A stretch of DNA of 64,000 nucleotides from Dehalococcoidales bacterium (GTDB lineage Bacteria; Chloroflexota; Dehalococcoidia; Dehalococcoidales; RBG-16-60-22): the NCBI GenBank assembly GCA_050014095.1, contig JBEKDZ010000003.1, positions 215,700 through 279,699 of the forward strand. Direction: 5' to 3'. The notes beneath the pieces are model-generated. The model ran no database searches. It was not told the DNA's origin and saw only the letters and a list, made by a program, of their open reading frames with translations. Shown here piece by piece: positions 31,260 through 64,000 of this stretch (position 1 is its first letter; the number at the start of each line of letters is the position of its first letter). The translations under genes were made by a program, and so were the position numbers.

Positions 31260-31298
31260 AACCTCTCCCTTTTGTAAAGGGAGACGGAGAGGGTTTTT
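31260..31298. repeat. hairpin repeat (family B); probably also the terminator of the activase gene
   Basis: TCTCCCTTT-tgt-AAAGGGAGA (31264-31284), with an alternative outer pairing AACCTCTCC/GGAGAGGGTT, followed by TTTTT. Confidence 0.7.
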
Positions 31299-31671: not shown

Positions 31672-31925
31672 TAAAAACTCCCTTCGTCCCTCTTTACGAA
31701 AGAGGGAGATGGGGAAAGGCAGCTGGATTCCTCCCATTTGCCCATCCCTTCTCCAAATTCGTTTAGTTCTAAAATCCCTCTCTCATCTCCCCTTACGAAT
31801 GGGAGACGATATCATTTTCTAATTCCAAAACAGCTACAACGACAGTCAGTGAGATTGCCACGTCACTTCGTTCCTCGCAATGACAGGGCGGTATTTGCCC
31901 ATTCCTTCTCCAATTTCGTAAAATA
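31672..31925. repeat. cluster of nested hairpin repeats (families A and B) bracketed by a 27-nt direct repeat
   Basis: TCCCTCTTT-acg-AAAGAGGGA (31687-31707), TCTCCC...GGGAGA (31786-31806), GAGATTGCCACG...CTCGCAATGACA (31851-31885). Direct repeats at 31736-31762 and 31893-31919. Confidence 0.8.
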
Positions 31926-35057: not shown

Positions 35058-35392
35058 TATTGTCATTGCGAGTCCTTCCGTAGAAGGACGTGGCAATCTC
35101 CCGAATGAATTCACGACGATGATAGAGATTGCCGCGTCATCCCGATTACATCGGGATTCCTCGCAATGACAGTTTTTAATTATTGCGCCTTTCTTATGAC
35201 AAGGTTGCAGCAAAATCTCCCTCCTGTCCCTTCCTTCGGCTTCGCTCAGGACAGGCCTTACGAACGAGGGACGCCAATACCCCAAAAAGGGGTGTTAAAG
35301 AGGGGCATCAGCCCCTCTTAATTGAATATAACCCCCTCTCCAAACATATTAATAACAGGTTTGCTCCCTGTTCCGTTTGGAGAGGGGGCAAG
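35058..35392. repeat. cluster of nested hairpin repeats (families A, C, D and others)
   Basis: TGTCATTGCGAG...CGTGGCAATCTC (35061-35100) faces its inverted copy (35125-35171). Also CCTGTCC/GGACAGG (35223-35255), AAGAGGGGC-atca-GCCCCTCTT (35298-35319), and a 14-bp stem CCCCCTCTCCAAAC/GTTTGGAGAGGGGG with a 29-nt loop (35332-35388). Confidence 0.85.
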
Positions 35393-37914: not shown

Positions 37915-38130
37915 CCCTACCCCCTCTCCAAACTTGAGTATGAATAATACTGTGTTTGCTATGTTTGGAGAGGGGTTTTTTGTTTCTTAAGAGGGGGCTA
38001 GCGCCCCCTCTTTAACACCCCGGTTGTGGGGAAAAGGGGTGAACCTCTCCCCCTTGTGTTCCCCCTCTCCGTACACAGAGAGGGGAAGTAATTATAAAAA
38101 CCCTCTTAATCTCCCTTTACGAAAGGGAGA
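37915..38130. repeat. cluster of hairpin repeats (families C, D, B) downstream of ribH
   Basis: 13-bp stem CCCCTCTCCAAAC/GTTTGGAGAGGGG with a 29-nt loop (37921-37975) followed by a T-run. Also AAGAGGGGGC-tagc-GCCCCCTCTT (37989-38012), CCCCTCT/AGAGGGG (38062-38085) and TCTCCCTTT-acg-AAAGGGAGA (38110-38130). Confidence 0.85.
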
Positions 38131-40518: not shown

Positions 40519-40751
40519 AGATACAAGATACAATAACCAAACAATACTCAAAAAATCAAAGGACAAACAAAATCCTTCTCATTCTCCCTTTATAAAAGGG
40601 AGACGATATTGTTTTCCTTAACAAGCATCGCTTGCAGCCCATTCGCTTGTCCCTCTTTCGCAAAGAGGGTTTACCCTGAAGACTCACCCTGAAGGGAGAA
40701 AGGGAGATTTTGTTTCACCCTCACCCTTCCCTCTCCCATCAAGGGAGAGGG
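40519..40751. repeat. cluster of hairpin repeats (family B variants) plus the AAGATACAATAACCAAA motif
   Basis: CAAGATACAATAACCAAA is also present at 50650. Hairpins: TCTCCCTTT-ata-AAAGGGAGA (40583-40603), CCCTCTTT-cgc-AAAGAGGG (40651-40669), CCCTCTCCC-atcaa-GGGAGAGGG (40729-40751). Confidence 0.8.
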
Positions 40752-43913: not shown

Positions 43914-43949
43914 AAGACTCCGGTTCTCAACTAATTTAGTTTTTTAGTT

Positions 43950-43983
43950 CCCCTTCCCCTACCCAGCGGAAGGGGATTTTTTT
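43950..43983 (+). terminator. rho-independent terminator/attenuator between rplT and pheS
   Basis: CCCCTTCC (43950-43957), 10-nt loop, GGAAGGGG (43968-43975), then ATTTTTTT. Confidence 0.65.
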
Positions 43984-47582: not shown

Positions 47583-47709
47583 AAGAGGGGCTAACGCCCC
47601 TCTTTTTATTTCACCCCCTTCCTTTGGCAAAGGAAGGGGGACAGGGGGATAGATTACTTATAGAAACAAAAAGGGCGAGGACGGATTCTTCACTGCGTTC
47701 AGAATGACA
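47583..47709. repeat. hairpin repeats after pheT; the first one doubles as a terminator
   Basis: AAGAGGGGC-taac-GCCCCTCTT plus T-run (47583-47607), 12-bp stem CCCCCTTCCTTT-ggc-AAAGGAAGGGGG (47614-47640), GGATTCTTCACTGCGTTCAGAATGACA (47683-47709). Confidence 0.8.
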
Positions 47710-52541: not shown

Positions 52542-52574
52542 GCGAGGCTCCTTTTTCTTAAAATCCCCCTTGGT

Positions 52575-52652
52575 CCCCCTTTTTCAAAGGGGGAAACGCG
52601 GAGGAAAACGTATTTATAAAATCTCCATTAATCCCTCCTTACGAAGGAGGGA
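52575..52652. repeat. two family-B hairpin repeats upstream of proS
   Basis: CCCCCTTT-ttc-AAAGGGGG (52575-52593) and TCCCTCCTT-acg-AAGGAGGGA (52632-52652). Confidence 0.8.
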
Positions 52653-61475: not shown

Positions 61476-62348
61476 CTATTTTACTGTCCCTACCCCACAT
61501 ATAATCGCGATGAATATATGGGGTTTGCGGAATTCCCTATAACGCAGCGGTCGGTGCTTTACACCACTAGAGATAAATAGGGAGCTGGTAGTATTGAACG
61601 TTAATAGCTGCCCGCCGAGATAAAACTCCATCTCACTACCGAGGTCTTCAGGATTAGCCGGGTCGCCGCCGAGGTTGATGATAATTTCATCGGCGTCCTG
61701 ATGTGCCATTTCCTTGATACTTTCAATTCTGGAAGCAGATTGTCCAGTTATCCAGCCATACTCAATATGGTGCTTCACGCCCGGCACCTGTAAGCTGCTC
61801 ATATAGGTCATTGCCGATGCCGCGCCTGCCTCAAATAAAGGACTCCGCACCACGTACCGCTCGTAGTCGTATTCCTTCGTCTTCTTCGGTAAGGCTCCCT
61901 TCTCATCATGGATACCGCTGGTGCCCCAGGCTTCGCCAGCACTGCCGGTGCCGCACATTATCGCCATCTGGAGGTGAGGAAACTGAAATTTTTTCCAGAT
62001 TACCGGACCGTGCGGCGTGCCTTTGGGAATATAAAAAGTGGTCGACGTATTAAAGATAATCGGCTGCCCGCCGACGTAAAACTCCACCTCCCCGCCGAGC
62101 ACCTGCGGCGTCCGGTAATCCCCACCCATGTGCATGACAATCTCATCAAAGTCGTGAACGTGCTCATGGAGGCTGGGGTTAGGGTCGGGGATACCGTATA
62201 TCCAGCCGGGCTCTATATAGTAGTTAGACCCCGGCACCTGCTTGTTGCTCATCATGGTCATGGTGGGACTCTGGCGATTTTTCGTACCGCCGAAGGCTTC
62301 GTAAAGAGGCTTTCTTACCAAGTATTTTTCATAGTCGATTTTAGGCAT
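61476..62348 (-). CDS. hypothetical protein with an internal tandem duplication (cupin-like halves)
   Basis: Both halves share DYE+Y-V+-PL-EA...QVPG...IE-GWI-G...H-D-DEI...GGD...LG-E-EFY-GGQ...FNT...H-P. Confidence 0.5.
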   Translation of the reverse strand: MPKIDYEKYLVRKPLYEAFGGTKNRQSPTMTMMSNKQVPGSNYYIEPGWIYGIPDPNPSLHEHVHDFDEIVMHMGGDYRTPQVLGGEVEFYVGGQPIIFNTSTTFYIPKGTPHGPVIWKKFQFPHLQMAIMCGTGSAGEAWGTSGIHDEKGALPKKTKEYDYERYVVRSPLFEAGAASAMTYMSSLQVPGVKHHIEYGWITGQSASRIESIKEMAHQDADEIIINLGGDPANPEDLGSEMEFYLGGQLLTFNTTSSLFISSGVKHRPLRYREFRKPHIFIAIICGVGTVK

Positions 62349-62464
62349 ATGTCTCTACTCCATTTATGTATTTGTGTTAATCATAGCGGGAGAAAGGTAA
62401 AGTGTCAAAGCGAATATGGGCTGACTTTACAGCTAGTATCTGGTAATAATATAATGCGAAAACA

Positions 62465-63013
62465 ATGAAGAACAACCACAATACATATATCCATTCTCGG
62501 CGCTCAATCAGGCTTAAAGGTTACGATTATTCTCAATCCGGAGCATATTTCGTTACCATTGTCACCCATCAAAGGATATTATTATTTGGAGATATAACAA
62601 ACCCCGTAGGAGCGAATTTAAAACCTTTCCTTACCCTGAATCAATATGGAGAGATAGTACAAACATCCTGGTATGATATTCCTAATCATTATTCCAATAT
62701 TTTATTAGATTCTTTTATCATCATGCCAAATCATGTTCACGGGATAATTATGATTAATAATCCTGTAGGGGCGGGTTTAAAACCCGCCCCTACGAAAAAT
62801 CATCCCCTTTCTGAAATCATTCGCGCGTTTAAAACATTTTCCGCCAGGCGTATTAACGAAATACATAAAACATCTAGCGTACCCATATGGCAACGTAACT
62901 ATTATGAGCGTATCATTAGAGACGAAAAAGAACTCAACTTAATACGTGAATATATTGAAAACAATATCATTAGGTGGGAATCCGATAAAGAAAATCTAAA
63001 ATCTATCCATTGA
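62465..63013 (+). mobile_element. REP-associated tyrosine transposase (RAYT, IS200-like HUH Y1 family, COG1943)
   Basis: SIRLKGYDYSQSGAYFVT, HUH motif MPNHVHGII, catalytic-Tyr region WQRNYYERIIRDEKELNLIREYIENN. No IS ends recognised. Confidence 0.8.
62765..62793 (+). repeat. GC-rich hairpin inside the RAYT ORF
   Basis: GTAGGGGCGGG-tttaaaa-CCCGCCCCTAC (11-bp stem) encodes VGAGLKPAPT. A decayed copy GTAGGAGCGAATTTAAAACCTTTCCTTAC lies at about 62606-62634 and encodes VGANLKPFLT. Confidence 0.8.
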
Positions 63014-63040
63014 AACTAAAAGACGTCGTAAAAAAACCAA

Positions 63041-64000
63041 CTACACTCGCTGCGCCATCTGGTAGGACTTGCCCTCGGTGACGATGGACGGCGCGATGAC
63101 CATCTCGGCTTTATGGAACTCTTTGATATTGGCGGCGCCACAAAAGCCCATCGCCGTACGTAAAGCCCCGACGAAGTTTTCCGTGCCGTGGACGACTGAT
63201 GTAGGGCCGAAGAGCAGCTTTTCCAGCGTGGTATTCGTTCCGACTTTTATGCGTGTACCTCTTGGCAACGCGGGGTGGGGATGAGACATGCCCCAGTGAT
63301 AGCCGCGTCCGGGGGCTTCCTTTGTCTGGGCGATGGGTGAACCTATCATCACCGCGTCCGTGCCAGCGGCAAAAGCTTTACAGATATCCCCGCCTTTGCG
63401 CAGACCGCCGTCGGTAATAATCGGGATATACTTACCGGATTCCTGGTAATATACATCTCTGGCCGCCGCGCAATCGATAGTAGCGGTTATCTGCGGAACA
63501 CCGACCCCGAGCACTTCCCTTGAGGTACAGGCGGCTCCGGGACCGACGCCAACCAGCACGCCGGCAATACCTGTTCTCATGAGCTCCAGGCAGGCCGTAT
63601 AGCTAACACAGTTGCCGACAACAATCGGCATTTTAATCTGCTTGACCATTTCCGAGAATATTAAGCCGCGGTAGCTCTTGGAAATATGACGGGCGCTGGT
63701 AACGGTGGACTGCACTACCAGTATATCGCCGCCGGCTTCCACTACGACTGGCGCCAGGCGCTTGGTGTTGGCCGGTATCAGCGAAATAGCGCAGATGGCA
63801 CCGGCTTGTTTAATCGCCCTTACCCTATCGCCAACCAGGTTATCTTTAATCGGCTCTTTATATACCTTTTGCAACAAAGCGGTAACTTCGGCATCGGAAG
63901 CTTTAGCGATTTTATCCAGAATCTCATCGGGATTGGCATAGCGTGCCTGGATGCCATCCAGATTGAGAACGCCGAGTCCTCCCAGCTTGTTTATCTGGAT
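63041..64000 (-). CDS. IMP dehydrogenase-family protein (GuaB3-like, no CBS insert seen); 5' end outside the window
   Basis: GVGPGAACTSREVLGVGVPQ, ITDGGLRKGGD, MIGSPIA. The frame stays open upstream to 64000 (…LGGLGVLNLDGIQARY…). Confidence 0.8.
   Translation of the reverse strand: MQINKLGGLGVLNLDGIQARYANPDEILDKIAKASDAEVTALLQKVYKEPIKDNLVGDRVRAIKQAGAICAISLIPANTKRLAPVVVEAGGDILVVQSTVTSARHISKSYRGLIFSEMVKQIKMPIVVGNCVSYTACLELMRTGIAGVLVGVGPGAACTSREVLGVGVPQITATIDCAAARDVYYQESGKYIPIITDGGLRKGGDICKAFAAGTDAVMIGSPIAQTKEAPGRGYHWGMSHPHPALPRGTRIKVGTNTTLEKLLFGPTSVVHGTENFVGALRTAMGFCGAANIKEFHKAEMVIAPSIVTEGKSYQMAQRV

What the first reader, a model, noticed from the sequence alone, without database searches (positions are those of the whole stretch)
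62465..63013. RAYT-type HUH transposase carrying a REP-like GC hairpin inside its own coding sequence
The ORF has the HUH motif (NHVHGII) and the catalytic Tyr region (WQRNYYERIIR) of REP-associated tyrosine transposases. It is a single-copy, domesticated-looking gene with no IS ends that I can see.

Just after the HUH motif the DNA forms GTAGGGGCGGG-tttaaaa-CCCGCCCCTAC (62765-62793), translated as VGAGLKPAPT. A decayed copy of the same element lies about 160 nt upstream (VGANLKPFLT), with a similar 5' context (ACCCCGTAGG versus ATCCTGTAGG).

The enzyme class thought to mobilise REP hairpins therefore has hairpin insertions embedded in frame in its own gene. It sits in a genome segment flooded with other hairpin families, which makes it the obvious candidate mobiliser, although the internal hairpin does not match families A-E.
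Basis: partly seen in the sequence, partly recalled or inferred. Interest (0 to 1): 0.6.

Follow-up and report, generated by a model that had tools for sequence, protein, structure and literature searches.

The report
RAYT transposase gene with in-frame REP hairpin
This is an intact gene for a REP-associated tyrosine transposase that carries its own target-type DNA hairpin, in frame, in a surface loop; the hairpin is real and kept at the DNA level, but it is the published hallmark of this enzyme subclass and not a new phenomenon.

Summary
ORF 62465-63013 (+) encodes a 182-aa Y1 HUH endonuclease. Nucleotides 62765-62793 are a perfect 29-nt palindrome, GTAGGGGCGGGTTT-A-AAACCCGCCCCTAC, read as VGAGLKPAPT.

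A decayed copy lies at 62606-62634. It is a 7-codon insertion private to this lineage.

Quentin et al. 2018 (PMC6006769) describe TnpA_REP subclass 2.4 (RAYT Group 4). Its "unique feature" is GTAG "double-foot" REPs inserted in frame between the HuH and Tyr motifs, and their Table S1 lists GTAGGGGCGGG... REPs.

I add that the hairpin, not the peptide, is what is conserved. In homologue genes chosen independently of the hairpin:
- 35 of 69 hold a perfect stem of at least 12 bp at this site, against 0.14% after synonymous resampling;
- the foot sits in two reading frames and never in the TAG-stop frame;
- the upper stem covaries;
- three genes have an empty site.

Where flanking REPs exist, the internal one matches them. 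An ortholog in the same chromosomal slot shows a compensated synonymous pair change at dS of about 1.5.

Two corrections. The catalytic Tyr is Y163 (YIENNI), not in WQRNYYE. Nothing links this enzyme to the window's other hairpin families, which lack the GTAG foot.

Verdict: new member of a known kind; interest 0.3.

The parts
62426..62455 (+). Promoter-like site TTTACA-18 nt-TATAAT, 9 nt upstream of the ATG
   Evidence: It matches the consensus at 11 of 12 positions. The same TTTACA and TATAAT hexamers are present upstream of the ortholog in L206 (intergenic sequences printed). Function is inferred only.
62465..63013 (+). Intact 182-aa Y1 HUH endonuclease gene (TnpA_REP / RAYT subclass 2.4, Group 4). 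It is AT-rich, with GC 0.355 against 0.51-0.56 in the neighbouring genes.
   Evidence: dN/dS is 0.15 against the ortholog in L206.
62606..62634 (+). Decayed REP copy GTAGGAGCGAATTTAAAACCTTTCCTTAC, read as VGANLKPFLT. It is a lineage-private insertion in the beta-hairpin between strands E42-45 and E55-58 of the model.
   Evidence: Direct repeat D1 is 70% identical over 44 nt. There is no fold. The segment is a 7-residue insertion against 40 homologues and a 21-nt gap in the ortholog.
62729..62740 (+). HUH motif N89-H90-V91-H92 (subclass 2.4 signature NH[IFV]H)
   Evidence: Read directly from the sequence. H90 and H92 are invariant in A1. The motif definition is in PMC6006769 Table 1.
62765..62793 (.). 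Perfect 29-nt 'double-foot' REP, GTAG-GGGCGGGTTT-A-AAACCCGCCC-CTAC, in frame 0 (VGAGLKPAPT). It lies in the loop between the HUH strand and the next helix. Because it is a palindrome, it presents a 5' GTAG-footed hairpin on both strands.
   Evidence: Residues 101-109 have pLDDT below 50. The same site is occupied in most homologues. The same 11-bp stem occurs in at least 120 genomic loci from many phyla.
62888..62920 (+). W142-Q143...E148-R149...R152, the region equivalent to W94, Q95, E100, H101 and R104 of E. coli TnpA_REP, which read the GTAG foot
   Evidence: W142, Q143 and R152 are invariant and E148 nearly invariant in A1. The residue roles come from PMC6006769 and PMC3479197. The equivalence is by offset and is inferred.
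62951..62968 (+). Tyr motif Y163-I-E-N-N-I (subclass 2.4 signature YIxNNP, with P replaced by I). Y163 is the predicted catalytic tyrosine and N167 corresponds to N119.
   Evidence: Y163 is invariant and N167 is conserved in at least 90% of A1. It lies on helix 154-166 of the model.

Best explanation
The ORF encodes an intact single-domain Y1 HUH endonuclease under purifying selection. It belongs to the REP-associated tyrosine transposase lineage that Quentin et al. call TnpA_REP subclass 2.4 (RAYT Group 4 of Bertels et al.).

Ten codons after the HUH strand are a cognate-type REP. This is a 29-nt palindrome with the GTAG guide tetranucleotide at its 5' foot on both strands ('double foot'). 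The codons form a disordered surface loop, so the protein tolerates them. Only two of the three reading frames are possible, because the third reads the foot as a TAG stop.

Inferred mode of action, by analogy with E. coli TnpA_REP and IS608/ISDra2 TnpA:
1. When the DNA is single-stranded (lagging-strand template or transcription bubble), the hairpin extrudes.
2. The enzyme binds the stem and reads GTAG through the W/Q/E/R cluster.
3. It cuts a nearby CT. One lies immediately 5' of the foot here, in AATCCT|GTAG.
4. Y163 forms a 5'-phosphotyrosine link, and the enzyme can rejoin strands.
5. Such cut-and-rejoin or copying events would spread REPs and homogenise them. They can also plausibly account for the in-gene copy, the second decayed copy 159 nt upstream, and the tandem half-REP arrays seen in homologues.

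What is shown: family membership, the fold, the motifs, the hairpin, and maintenance of the hairpin at the nucleic-acid level across the family. What is inferred: catalysis on this hairpin and the way the hairpin is maintained.
For: Enzyme:
- Pfam Y1_Tnp scores above its cut-off.
- The AF2 model has pLDDT 82.6. Foldseek matches ISDra2, IS608 and IS200 TnpA and TnpA_REP 4er8_A, with E between 1e-6 and 1e-5.
- NHVH, WQ and YIENN motifs fit the subclass 2.4 signatures.
- dN/dS is 0.15 against the syntenic ortholog.

Hairpin as a DNA-level entity:
- 80 homologue loci were picked through WQRNYYE and MPNHxH only. Of 69 usable genes, 35 have a perfect stem of at least 12 bp between HUH and WQ, and 56 have at least 9 bp. 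Synonymous resampling gives 0.14% and 1.5%.
- The GT[AG]GGGGC foot lies in frame 0 in 51 cases, frame 1 in 17 and frame 2 in none. The peptides are therefore unrelated (VGAGLKPAPT, RGTACRAPT, VGAIHELPL and others).
- Among 46 distinct internal hairpins, pairs 1-8 are nearly invariant. Pairs 9-13 show 2-4 Watson-Crick pair types.
- In the VGAG..PAPT class, all four third-codon/third-codon pairs are Watson-Crick in 12 of 12 sequences, with GC/AT covariation at pair 9-21.
- Empty sites exist in L141, L155 and L164, with 40-41 residues against 50 in the window.
- The internal REP equals the flanking REPs of the same locus in L125, L145, L151, L153, L157, L163, L168 and L175.
- The ortholog L206 differs by one compensated synonymous pair (G-C to A-T) although dS is about 1.5.

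Published description of exactly this arrangement: PMC6006769, with GTAGGGGCGGG... REPs in its Table S1. The GTAG and CT requirements come from PMC3479197.
Against: - There is no biochemical evidence for this protein.
- The window holds no second intact GTAG hairpin in 64 kb and no REP flanking the gene. A REP population for the enzyme to act on is therefore not shown for this genome.
- The NCBIfam REP_Tyr_transpos equivalog scores 59.8 bits, below its cut-off of 80.
- The Tyr motif is YIENNI rather than YIxNNP.
- H101 of the E. coli enzyme is R149 here.
- A perfectly paired 'double foot' buries GTAG in the stem, whereas in the 4ER8 complex the GTAG is unpaired. Recognition may therefore differ.
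- The hairpin sets were selected by pairing criteria, which inflates the percentage paired. It does not inflate the diversity of pair types.
Confidence: 0.85

Rival explanations
1. The internal hairpin is a selected cis-element and not a tolerated passenger. It could be a heritable 'master copy' of the cognate REP that travels with the gene. It could also be an autoregulatory site on the gene's own DNA or mRNA, through enzyme binding, a transcription or translation pause, or mRNA stabilisation. This is compatible with the best explanation's family assignment and differs only in why the hairpin persists.
For: - The internal copy is the most persistent one. Among 57 loci with at least 300 nt on both sides, 28 have an internal double-foot hairpin. 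Only 8 have one within 300 nt upstream and 9 within 300 nt downstream, and 19 have the internal copy alone.
- In the window the internal copy is perfect while no flanking copy remains. In the ortholog L206 the internal copy is perfect while the copy after the stop codon has decayed.
- There is a compensated synonymous change at dS of about 1.5.
- The same 11-bp stem occurs in many phyla.
Against: - Three homologues have an empty site and 13 of 69 have no stem longer than 8 bp, so the hairpin is dispensable.
- Repeated conversion or re-insertion from genomic REPs would give the same pattern, because the internal REP equals the flanking REPs.
- No T-run follows the hairpin on either strand and no terminator-like site is found there.
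- There is no Rfam match.
- Nothing here measures expression.
Confidence: 0.25
2. VGAGLKPAPT is an ordinary conserved protein motif, and the palindrome is a by-product of the codons for that peptide.
For: The ten residues are nearly invariant among the 40 close homologues in A1 and in most of the top 120 hits.
Against: - More distant homologues carry unrelated peptides at the same site, encoded by the same kind of palindrome in another frame or with another upper stem.
- Synonymous resampling of the same peptides gives stems of at least 12 bp in only 0.14% of cases, against 51% observed.
- Third-codon positions always pair.
- The loop is predicted disordered, with pLDDT below 50.
- Copies of the same palindrome lie outside the gene, in N- and C-terminal ORF extensions and elsewhere in genomes.
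Confidence: 0.03
3. This enzyme is the mobiliser of the other short hairpin families that populate the window at 31-53 kb.
For: Those families exist and exceed chance, with 15 perfect hairpins against 0-4 in shuffles. The RAYT is the only HUH enzyme noticed near the window's end.
Against: - The families (TCTCCCTTT-N3-AAAGGGAGA and AAGAGGGGC-N4-GCCCCTCTT) have no GT[AG]G foot. That foot is required for binding and cleavage by TnpA_REP and is the common feature of subclass 2.4 REPs.
- None lies within 9 kb of the gene.
- In related loci the enzyme's neighbours are GTAGGGGC-foot REPs identical to the internal one.
Confidence: 0.05
4. The gene is a domesticated relic whose product no longer acts on REPs in this genome. 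The internal hairpin is an old scar kept only because changing it is slow or mildly deleterious.
For: There is no other intact GTAG hairpin in 64 kb and no flanking REP. The upstream copy has decayed completely. The gene sits in the same slot in a distant relative, which fits vertical inheritance.
Against: - At dS of about 1.5, an unselected stem would have decayed. Instead it is perfect in both orthologs, with a compensated change.
- All catalytic and GTAG-reading residues are kept, and dN/dS is 0.15.
- One 64-kb window cannot show absence of REPs genome-wide.
Confidence: 0.12

Closest known systems
TnpA_REP subclass 2.4 of the TnpA_Y1 superfamily (Quentin, Siguier, Chandler, Fichant 2018, BMC Genomics 19:475, PMC6006769), which is RAYT Group 4 of Bertels, Gallie and Rainey 2017 (PMC5581495)
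   Same: - The HuH motif is NH[IFV]H, the W motif is WQ, and the Tyr motif is of the YIxNN type.
- There is a variable insertion between beta3 (HuH) and alphaC made of REP sequence, in frame.
- The REPs have a 5' GT[AG]G foot and a 3' C[TC]AC foot ('double foot').
- The GTAGGGGCGGG... stem is listed in their Table S1.
- The taxonomic distribution is patchy and spans many phyla.
- Copy number is low.

   Different: - This window has no REP flanking the gene; the paper finds REPs within 1 kb of most members.
- The last motif residue is I, not P.
- There is a second, decayed copy at another site (between beta1 and alphaA) that the paper does not mention.
- The host is a Dehalococcoidales-type Chloroflexota genome rather than the Cyanobacteria and Bacteroidetes that dominate their sample.
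E. coli TnpA_REP (RayT/YafM), PDB 4ER8 (Messing et al. 2012, PMC3479197; Ton-Hoang et al. 2012, PMC3333891)
   Same: It has the same fold (Foldseek E = 2e-6, rmsd 3.0 A over 152 columns). It has HUH plus a Tyr on the C-terminal helix 21 residues after the conserved W. The GTAG-reading W/Q/E/R positions are conserved. Its substrate is a GC-rich hairpin with a 5' GTAG foot, and it cleaves at CT.
   Different: - Sequence identity is only 16%, and it belongs to subclass 2.2 (DHLH, YIHYNP).
- Its REPs are imperfect with a bulge, have a single unpaired GTAG foot, and lie outside the gene.
- It has no insertion after the HUH strand.
- It has a C-terminal extension that contacts GTAG and is absent here.
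IS200/IS605 TnpA (IS608, ISDra2, IS200)
   Same: These are the best Foldseek matches (2xm3, 2vjv, 2f4f). The chemistry is the same, and so is the recognition of DNA hairpins on single strands.
   Different: - There are no subterminal hairpins at the gene's ends and no tnpB.
- NCBIfam transpos_IS200 scores 22.6 bits against a cut-off of 55.
- The motif is NHVH rather than DH[VI]H.
- The gene sits in a conserved chromosomal slot.
REPs and RPEs inside protein-coding genes (Di Nocera et al. 2013, PMC3733652; Rickettsia palindromic elements as cited there)
   Same: These are short palindromic repeats inserted in frame in functional genes, encoding extra loop residues. GTAG feet often supply or avoid TAG stops.
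   Different: There the hosts are unrelated housekeeping genes and the insertions are sporadic. Here the host gene is the REP's own presumed enzyme, and the site is occupied across most of the family.

Membership tests
Y1 HUH transposase superfamily (Pfam PF01797, Y1_Tnp) | Profile score above the curated gathering threshold | tested here: met
   The score is 31.5 bits against a cut-off of 23, E = 2.1e-7, over residues 79-167.
Y1 HUH transposase superfamily (Pfam PF01797, Y1_Tnp) | HUH metal-binding motif on a beta strand and a single catalytic Tyr on a C-terminal helix | tested here: met
   H90 and H92 are invariant and lie between strands E79-86 and E90-97. Y163 is invariant and lies on helix 154-166.
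Y1 HUH transposase superfamily (Pfam PF01797, Y1_Tnp) | TnpA-type alpha/beta fold | tested here: met
   Foldseek against PDB gives 30 hits with E <= 1e-3. All are IS200/IS605-type TnpA or TnpA_REP (2xm3, 4er8, 2vjv, 2f4f, 2ec2). phmmer against PDB found nothing.
TnpA_REP subclass 2.4 / RAYT Group 4 (PMC6006769 Table 1) | HuH motif NH[IFV]H and W motif WQ | tested here: met
   N89-H-V-H92 and W142-Q143 are present.
TnpA_REP subclass 2.4 / RAYT Group 4 (PMC6006769 Table 1) | Tyr motif YIxNNP | tested here: inconclusive
   The window has YIENNI, matching 5 of 6 positions. Many close homologues have YIxNNP and others have YIENN[VI].
TnpA_REP subclass 2.4 / RAYT Group 4 (PMC6006769 Table 1) | Variable insertion between beta3 (HuH) and alphaC made of REP sequence inserted in frame | tested here: met
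   The 29-nt REP at 62765-62793 encodes residues 101-110. 'Empty' homologues are 10 residues shorter there.
TnpA_REP subclass 2.4 / RAYT Group 4 (PMC6006769 Table 1) | Cognate REP with a 5' GT[AG]G foot, 'long' or 'double foot' (3' C[TC]AC) | tested here: met
   The element reads GTAG...CTAC with an 11-bp GC-rich stem. GTAGGGGCGGG... REPs are listed for subclass 2.4 in Table S1.
TnpA_REP subclass 2.4 / RAYT Group 4 (PMC6006769 Table 1) | REPs flanking the gene within about 1 kb | tested here: not met
   There is no other double-foot hairpin anywhere in the window and no inverted repeat in the flanks. The ortholog L206 keeps a decayed one after its stop codon. The paper says 'large majority', so this is typical rather than obligatory.
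TnpA_REP subclass 2.4 / RAYT Group 4 (PMC6006769 Table 1) | 8-residue insertion at the end of alphaB | not tested
   Testing this needs the authors' superfamily alignment, and no alignment to other subclasses was made here.
TnpA_REP subclass 2.4 / RAYT Group 4 (PMC6006769 Table 1) | Residues equivalent to W94, Q95, E100, H101 and R104 that read GTAG | tested here: met
   W142, Q143, E148 and R152 are kept. The H101 equivalent is R149 here and H in most homologues. The equivalence is by offset from W.
NCBIfam NF047646 REP_Tyr_transpos (equivalog) | Score at or above the curated cut-off of 80 bits | tested here: not met
   The score is 59.8 bits over residues 23-170, aligned to model positions 7-133. 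The query is therefore about 21 residues longer than the model over that span.
Functional REP/RAYT (REPtron, REPIN) system | Many dispersed copies of the cognate REP in the same genome, often as inverted doublets | not testable with these tools
   Only 64 kb of this genome is available, and it holds one intact copy and one decayed copy, both inside the gene. Elsewhere the same stem is dispersed: at least 120 loci, with 120 of 122 copies having no RAYT within 8 kb.
Functional REP/RAYT (REPtron, REPIN) system | Enzyme binds and cleaves its REP | not testable with these tools
   This needs biochemistry.
IS200/IS605 insertion sequence | Subterminal hairpins at both ends, an optional tnpB, multiple near-identical copies, and a NCBIfam transpos_IS200 score of at least 55 | tested here: not met
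   The score is 22.6 bits. There are no terminal hairpins. The neighbours are a cupin gene and an IMPDH-family gene. The ortholog in the same slot is only 72% identical at the nucleotide level.

The most novel reading that the evidence does not exclude
The in-gene REP is a selected element and not a tolerated passenger. By keeping one perfect copy of its cognate GTAGGGGC-foot hairpin inside its own reading frame, the transposase gene would carry a protected 'seed' or autoregulatory site. This copy survives when flanking and dispersed copies decay, and it travels with the gene on horizontal transfer. That would explain why one and the same 11-bp stem is found from Cyanobacteria to Chloroflexota, Acidobacteriota and Proteobacteria. 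My data show maintenance at the nucleic-acid level and greater persistence of the internal copy. They do not separate selection from repeated enzyme-driven conversion.
Probability: 0.2. Interest if true: 0.6.

Novelty: new member of a known kind. Interest (0 to 1): 0.3.

Why it matters
For annotation, this is a RAYT/TnpA_REP subclass 2.4 gene. Peptides such as VGAGLKPAPT, RGTACRAPT or GGFETRPY in ORF calls are translated REP hairpins, not protein motifs.

For biology, the arrangement itself is already published. What remains open, and is made sharper here, is why the internal copy stays a perfect hairpin. It does so at saturated synonymous divergence, and it outlasts the flanking copies.

If that reflects function (a seed copy or self-regulation), it would bear on how REP/RAYT systems persist for long periods and spread between phyla. 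The window gives a clean natural test case: one gene, one perfect internal REP, one decayed copy, no flanking REPs, and an ortholog for comparison.

Tried and rejected
- An exact-sequence look-up of the window protein in the contig collection found nothing.
- A full-text search for the hairpin-encoded peptides (GAGLKPAPT, GGFETRPY and others) found no paper. The relevant literature was found through 'GTAG / palindromic / RAYT / REP' instead.
- phmmer against PDB sequences gave no hit at E <= 1. A structure prediction plus Foldseek was needed. One collecting call failed because the structure machine did not answer.
I replaced it with my own scan.
- Rfam had no match at E <= 1 in 62200-63200.
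- The terminator scan found no terminator-like site at the hairpin, so I rejected a reading as an intrinsic terminator.
- I considered recent horizontal acquisition because the gene's GC is 0.355 against 0.51-0.56 around it. I rejected this as the simplest reading. The ortholog in the same slot of a distant relative is equally AT-rich (0.37) at 72% nucleotide identity.
- I tested whether the dispersed 29-mers lie inside ORFs. 74 of 122 are spanned by a stop-free frame of at least 120 codons. In GC-rich genomes this is weak evidence, and I draw no conclusion from it.
Full report
**1. What is in the sequence**

The ORF 62465..63013 (+) is real and encodes 182 residues. Its GC content is 0.35-0.39, between neighbours at 0.51-0.58.

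It scores above Pfam's threshold for Y1_Tnp (31.5 bits against 23). It scores below NCBI's equivalog threshold for REP_Tyr_transpos (59.8 bits against 80). In that NCBIfam alignment, 148 query residues cover 127 model positions. This is the first hint of about 20 extra residues.

Nucleotides 62765-62793 form a perfect 14 + 1 + 14 palindrome, GTAGGGGCGGGTTT-A-AAACCCGCCCCTAC.
- As single-stranded DNA it folds at -16.7 kcal/mol on the + strand and -16.5 kcal/mol on the - strand, with z-scores of -6.9 and -7.4.
- It is unique in the window.

The upstream copy at 62606-62634 is 70% identical over 44 nt, including 6 nt of 5' flank. It no longer folds.

**2. The enzyme**

A search of the protein collection returned more than 7,900 relatives. 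The top 120 are 47-68% identical and come from Dehalococcoidales, Anaerolineae, Nitrospirota and other metagenome-assembled genomes.

An AlphaFold model built on a 41-sequence alignment has mean pLDDT 82.6. Only residues 9-18 and 101-109 fall below 50, and the second segment is the hairpin-encoded loop.

Foldseek against the PDB returns only Y1 transposases at E <= 1e-3:
- ISDra2 TnpA;
- E. coli TnpA_REP 4er8_A (E = 2e-6, rmsd 3.0 A);
- IS608, IS200 and the Sulfolobus enzyme.

Invariant positions in the alignment include H90, H92, W142, Q143, R152 and Y163.

Quentin et al. give the W motif 'WQ' and the Tyr motif 'YIxNNP' for this subclass. They also give W94, Q95, E100, H101 and R104 as the GTAG-reading residues of the E. 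coli enzyme. By offset, WQRNYYERIIR is that GTAG-reading region.

**3. The hairpin is a family feature, and it is already described**

Nearly all of the 120 closest homologues have VGAG[LFS][KER]PAPT right after the HUH strand. Many have further copies in N-terminal ORF extensions, in C-terminal tails, as tandem partial repeats, or in another frame (GGFQTRPY, GRFETSPY).

The literature search led to Quentin, Siguier, Chandler and Fichant 2018 (PMC6006769). [quoted passage not shown] Some REPs have a 'double foot', with 5' GT[AG]G and 3' C[TC]AC.

Their Table S1 lists subclass 2.4 REPs beginning GTAGGGGCGGG.... Bertels et al. 2017 describe the same group (Group 4) as common in Cyanobacteria, Chlorobia and Caldilineae and spread over 17 classes. 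Di Nocera et al. 2013 describe GTAG-tagged REPs, some of them inside ORFs.

The finding is therefore a new member of a published kind.

**4. Tests that go beyond the paper's statement**

I fetched 80 homologue loci through peptide patterns that do not include the hairpin (WQRNYYE and MPNHxH[GA]).

*Occupancy of the site.* Between HUH and WQ, 35 of 69 usable genes hold a perfect stem of at least 12 bp, and 56 hold at least 9 bp. Resampling synonymous codons for the same peptides gives 0.14% and 1.5%.

*Reading frame.* The foot GT[AG]GGGGC is in frame 0 in 51 cases, frame 1 in 17 and frame 2 in none. Frame 2 would read TAG. This is why the encoded peptides differ completely between lineages (VGAGLKPAPT, VGARHAVPL, RGTACRAPT, VGAIHELPL, GGSRTAPT and others).

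*Covariation.* Among 46 distinct internal hairpins, pairs 1-8 (GTAGGGGC/GCCCCTAC) are nearly invariant. Pairs 9-13 show two to four Watson-Crick pair types. The set was selected for pairing, so the diversity of types is the informative number, not the percentage paired.

*Third-codon positions.* In the VGAG..PAPT class, the four stem pairs that join two third-codon positions are Watson-Crick in 12 of 12 sequences. Pair 9-21 alternates between G-C and A-T.

*Empty sites.* Three genes (L141, L155, L164) have 40-41 residues between HUH and WQ, against 50 in the window. This matches a 30-nt insertion.

*Match to flanking REPs.* Where REPs flank the gene, the internal one has the same sequence (L125, L145, L151, L153, L157, L163, L168, L175).

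*Persistence.* The internal copy is the most persistent. It is present in 28 of 57 loci with adequate flanks, against 8 upstream and 9 downstream. In 19 loci it is the only copy.

**5. The hairpin outside RAYT genes**

The hits came from:
- Chloroflexota, Acidobacteriota and Nitrospirota;
- Alpha-, Delta- and Gammaproteobacteria;
- Cyanobacteria, Patescibacteria, Omnitrophota and Planctomycetota;
- Rubrobacter, Parabacteroides and others.

My estimate of the chance expectation for 22 fixed bases in 596 Gb is below 1 for even base composition. It stays at only a handful even if all genomes were 65% GC.

The flanks are unrelated, so the unit is the 27-30-nt palindrome itself. Only one locus (L041) has the hairpin inside a RAYT gene. 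120 of 122 copies have no RAYT within the 8-kb locus. This is the pattern expected of dispersed REPs with a rare enzyme gene.

**6. Local history**

The neighbour gene (a cupin, 61476-62348 on the minus strand) has relatives at 98%, 85% and 73% identity.
- In the 98% relative, the slot between the IMPDH-family gene and the cupin gene holds a HicA/HicB pair (L201).
- In the 85% relative, it holds a methyltransferase and an acetyltransferase (L204).
- In the 73% relative, a Dehalococcoidales MAG, it holds a RAYT in the same orientation (L206).

That ortholog has the following properties:
- It is 72% identical at the nucleotide level and equally AT-rich (0.37).
- dN/dS is 0.15 and dS is about 1.5.
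- It lacks the 21-nt upstream insertion.
- It keeps a decayed REP right after its stop codon.
- Its internal hairpin is perfect and differs from the window's by one compensated synonymous pair (GCG/CCC to GCA/CCT) and one loop base.

A promoter-like TTTACA-18-TATAAT sits 9 nt before the ATG. Its hexamers recur upstream of the ortholog.

**7. Mechanism**

Shown here:
- membership of the Y1 HUH fold and of the subclass 2.4 sequence type;
- an intact gene under purifying selection;
- a REP of the cognate type in a disordered loop;
- maintenance of the stem at the nucleic-acid level.

Inferred from the E. coli TnpA_REP and IS608/ISDra2 work (PMC3479197):
1. The hairpin forms on single-stranded DNA.
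2. The enzyme reads the GTAG foot.
3. It cleaves at a CT; one abuts the foot at 62763-62764.
4. Y163 makes the covalent intermediate.
5. Strand transfer copies, moves or homogenises REPs.

The shared 5' flank of the two in-gene copies (AAYCCY before GTAGG) fits a copied unit a few bases longer than the palindrome. This is conjecture.

Whether the internal copy persists through selection for a function or through repeated conversion from genomic REPs is not resolved.

**8. Rivals**

- A conserved-peptide reading is close to excluded.
- A terminator reading has no support, because no T-run follows the hairpin.
- No Rfam family matches.
- The idea that this enzyme mobilises the window's other hairpins lacks support. 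Those hairpins (TCTCCCTTT-N3-AAAGGGAGA at six sites and AAGAGGGGC-N4-GCCCCTCTT at three) have no GTAG foot and lie 9 kb or more away.

**9. Verdict**

This is a new member of a known kind, with interest about 0.3.

The open question worth a follow-up is why the in-gene REP outlasts all other copies.

Noticed in passing
window 31264-31284, 31687-31707, 38110-38130, 40583-40603, 52574-52594, 52632-52652; 35298-35319, 37989-38012, 47583-47604; 47614-47640; 40729-40751; 43949-43976: The AT-rich intergenic stretches hold two families of short perfect hairpins with polypurine/polypyrimidine arms, plus single relatives. The families are TC[TC]C[CT]C[TC]TT-N3-AA[GA]G[GA]G[AG]GA (6 copies) and AAGAGGGG(G)C-N4-G(C)CCCCTCTT (3 copies). 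The window has 15 perfect hairpins with a stem of at least 9 bp, against 0-4 in block shuffles. None has a GTAG foot. Their nature (terminators or a separate repeat family) was not examined.
   Followed up: partly
window 62349-63040 compared with L201:3373-4000, L204:2450-4000, L206:770-1436: The slot between the IMPDH-family gene and the cupin gene is a variable spot in related Dehalococcoidales genomes. It holds a RAYT here and in L206, HicA/HicB in the 98%-identical relative (L201), and a methyltransferase plus a GNAT acetyltransferase in the 85% relative (L204).
   Followed up: partly
L206:770-807 (reverse strand), just after the RAYT stop codon: There is a decayed flanking REP, GGATGGGTTAAAAACCCGCCCCAAC. 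Its right arm is nearly intact and its left arm is lost. The internal REP of the same gene is perfect.
   Followed up: yes
L157, L179, L137, L185, L123 (HUH-WQ segments); proteins P0046, P0061, P0092: Homologues carry tandem arrays of half-REP or foot-proximal units inside the loop. Examples are VGAVQN repeated before VGAIHELPLQ, GATNVGATHVGTTNMG..., PAPTRPAPTRPAPT, and TPVPTPVPTPVPT. This suggests slippage, or repeated cut-and-rejoin at the hairpin foot.
   Followed up: no
window 62465-63013 and L206:808-1326: The RAYT gene is strongly AT-rich (GC 0.355 and 0.37) inside GC 0.51-0.56 neighbourhoods in both orthologs, despite dS of about 1.5. The low GC is therefore a stable property of the gene and not a sign of recent arrival. 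The hairpin is its only GC-rich island.
   Followed up: partly
window 62380-62455: Divergent promoter-like sites lie back to back in the 116-nt cupin-RAYT spacer. They are TTTACA-18-TATAAT on the + strand (62426-62455) and TTGACA-17-TATGAT on the - strand (62408-62380). Each matches the consensus at 11 of 12 positions.
   Followed up: no
L059, L062, L023, L092, L104, L157, L175 (flanks of the seeded hairpins): Different upper-stem variants of the GTAGGGGC-foot REP coexist within a few hundred bases in the same genome. For example, GTAGGGGCGGGTCTGAGACCCGCCCCTAC lies next to GTAGGGGCGCAGCGCGCTGCGCCCCTAC in L062. Several REP classes therefore share one foot.
   Followed up: no
P0006 (residues about 44-58): A second, independent REP-derived insertion (VPVGADLKSAPTAPT) lies within two residues of the window's decayed upstream copy. 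The beta-hairpin turn after beta1 may therefore be a second permissive site.
   Followed up: partly
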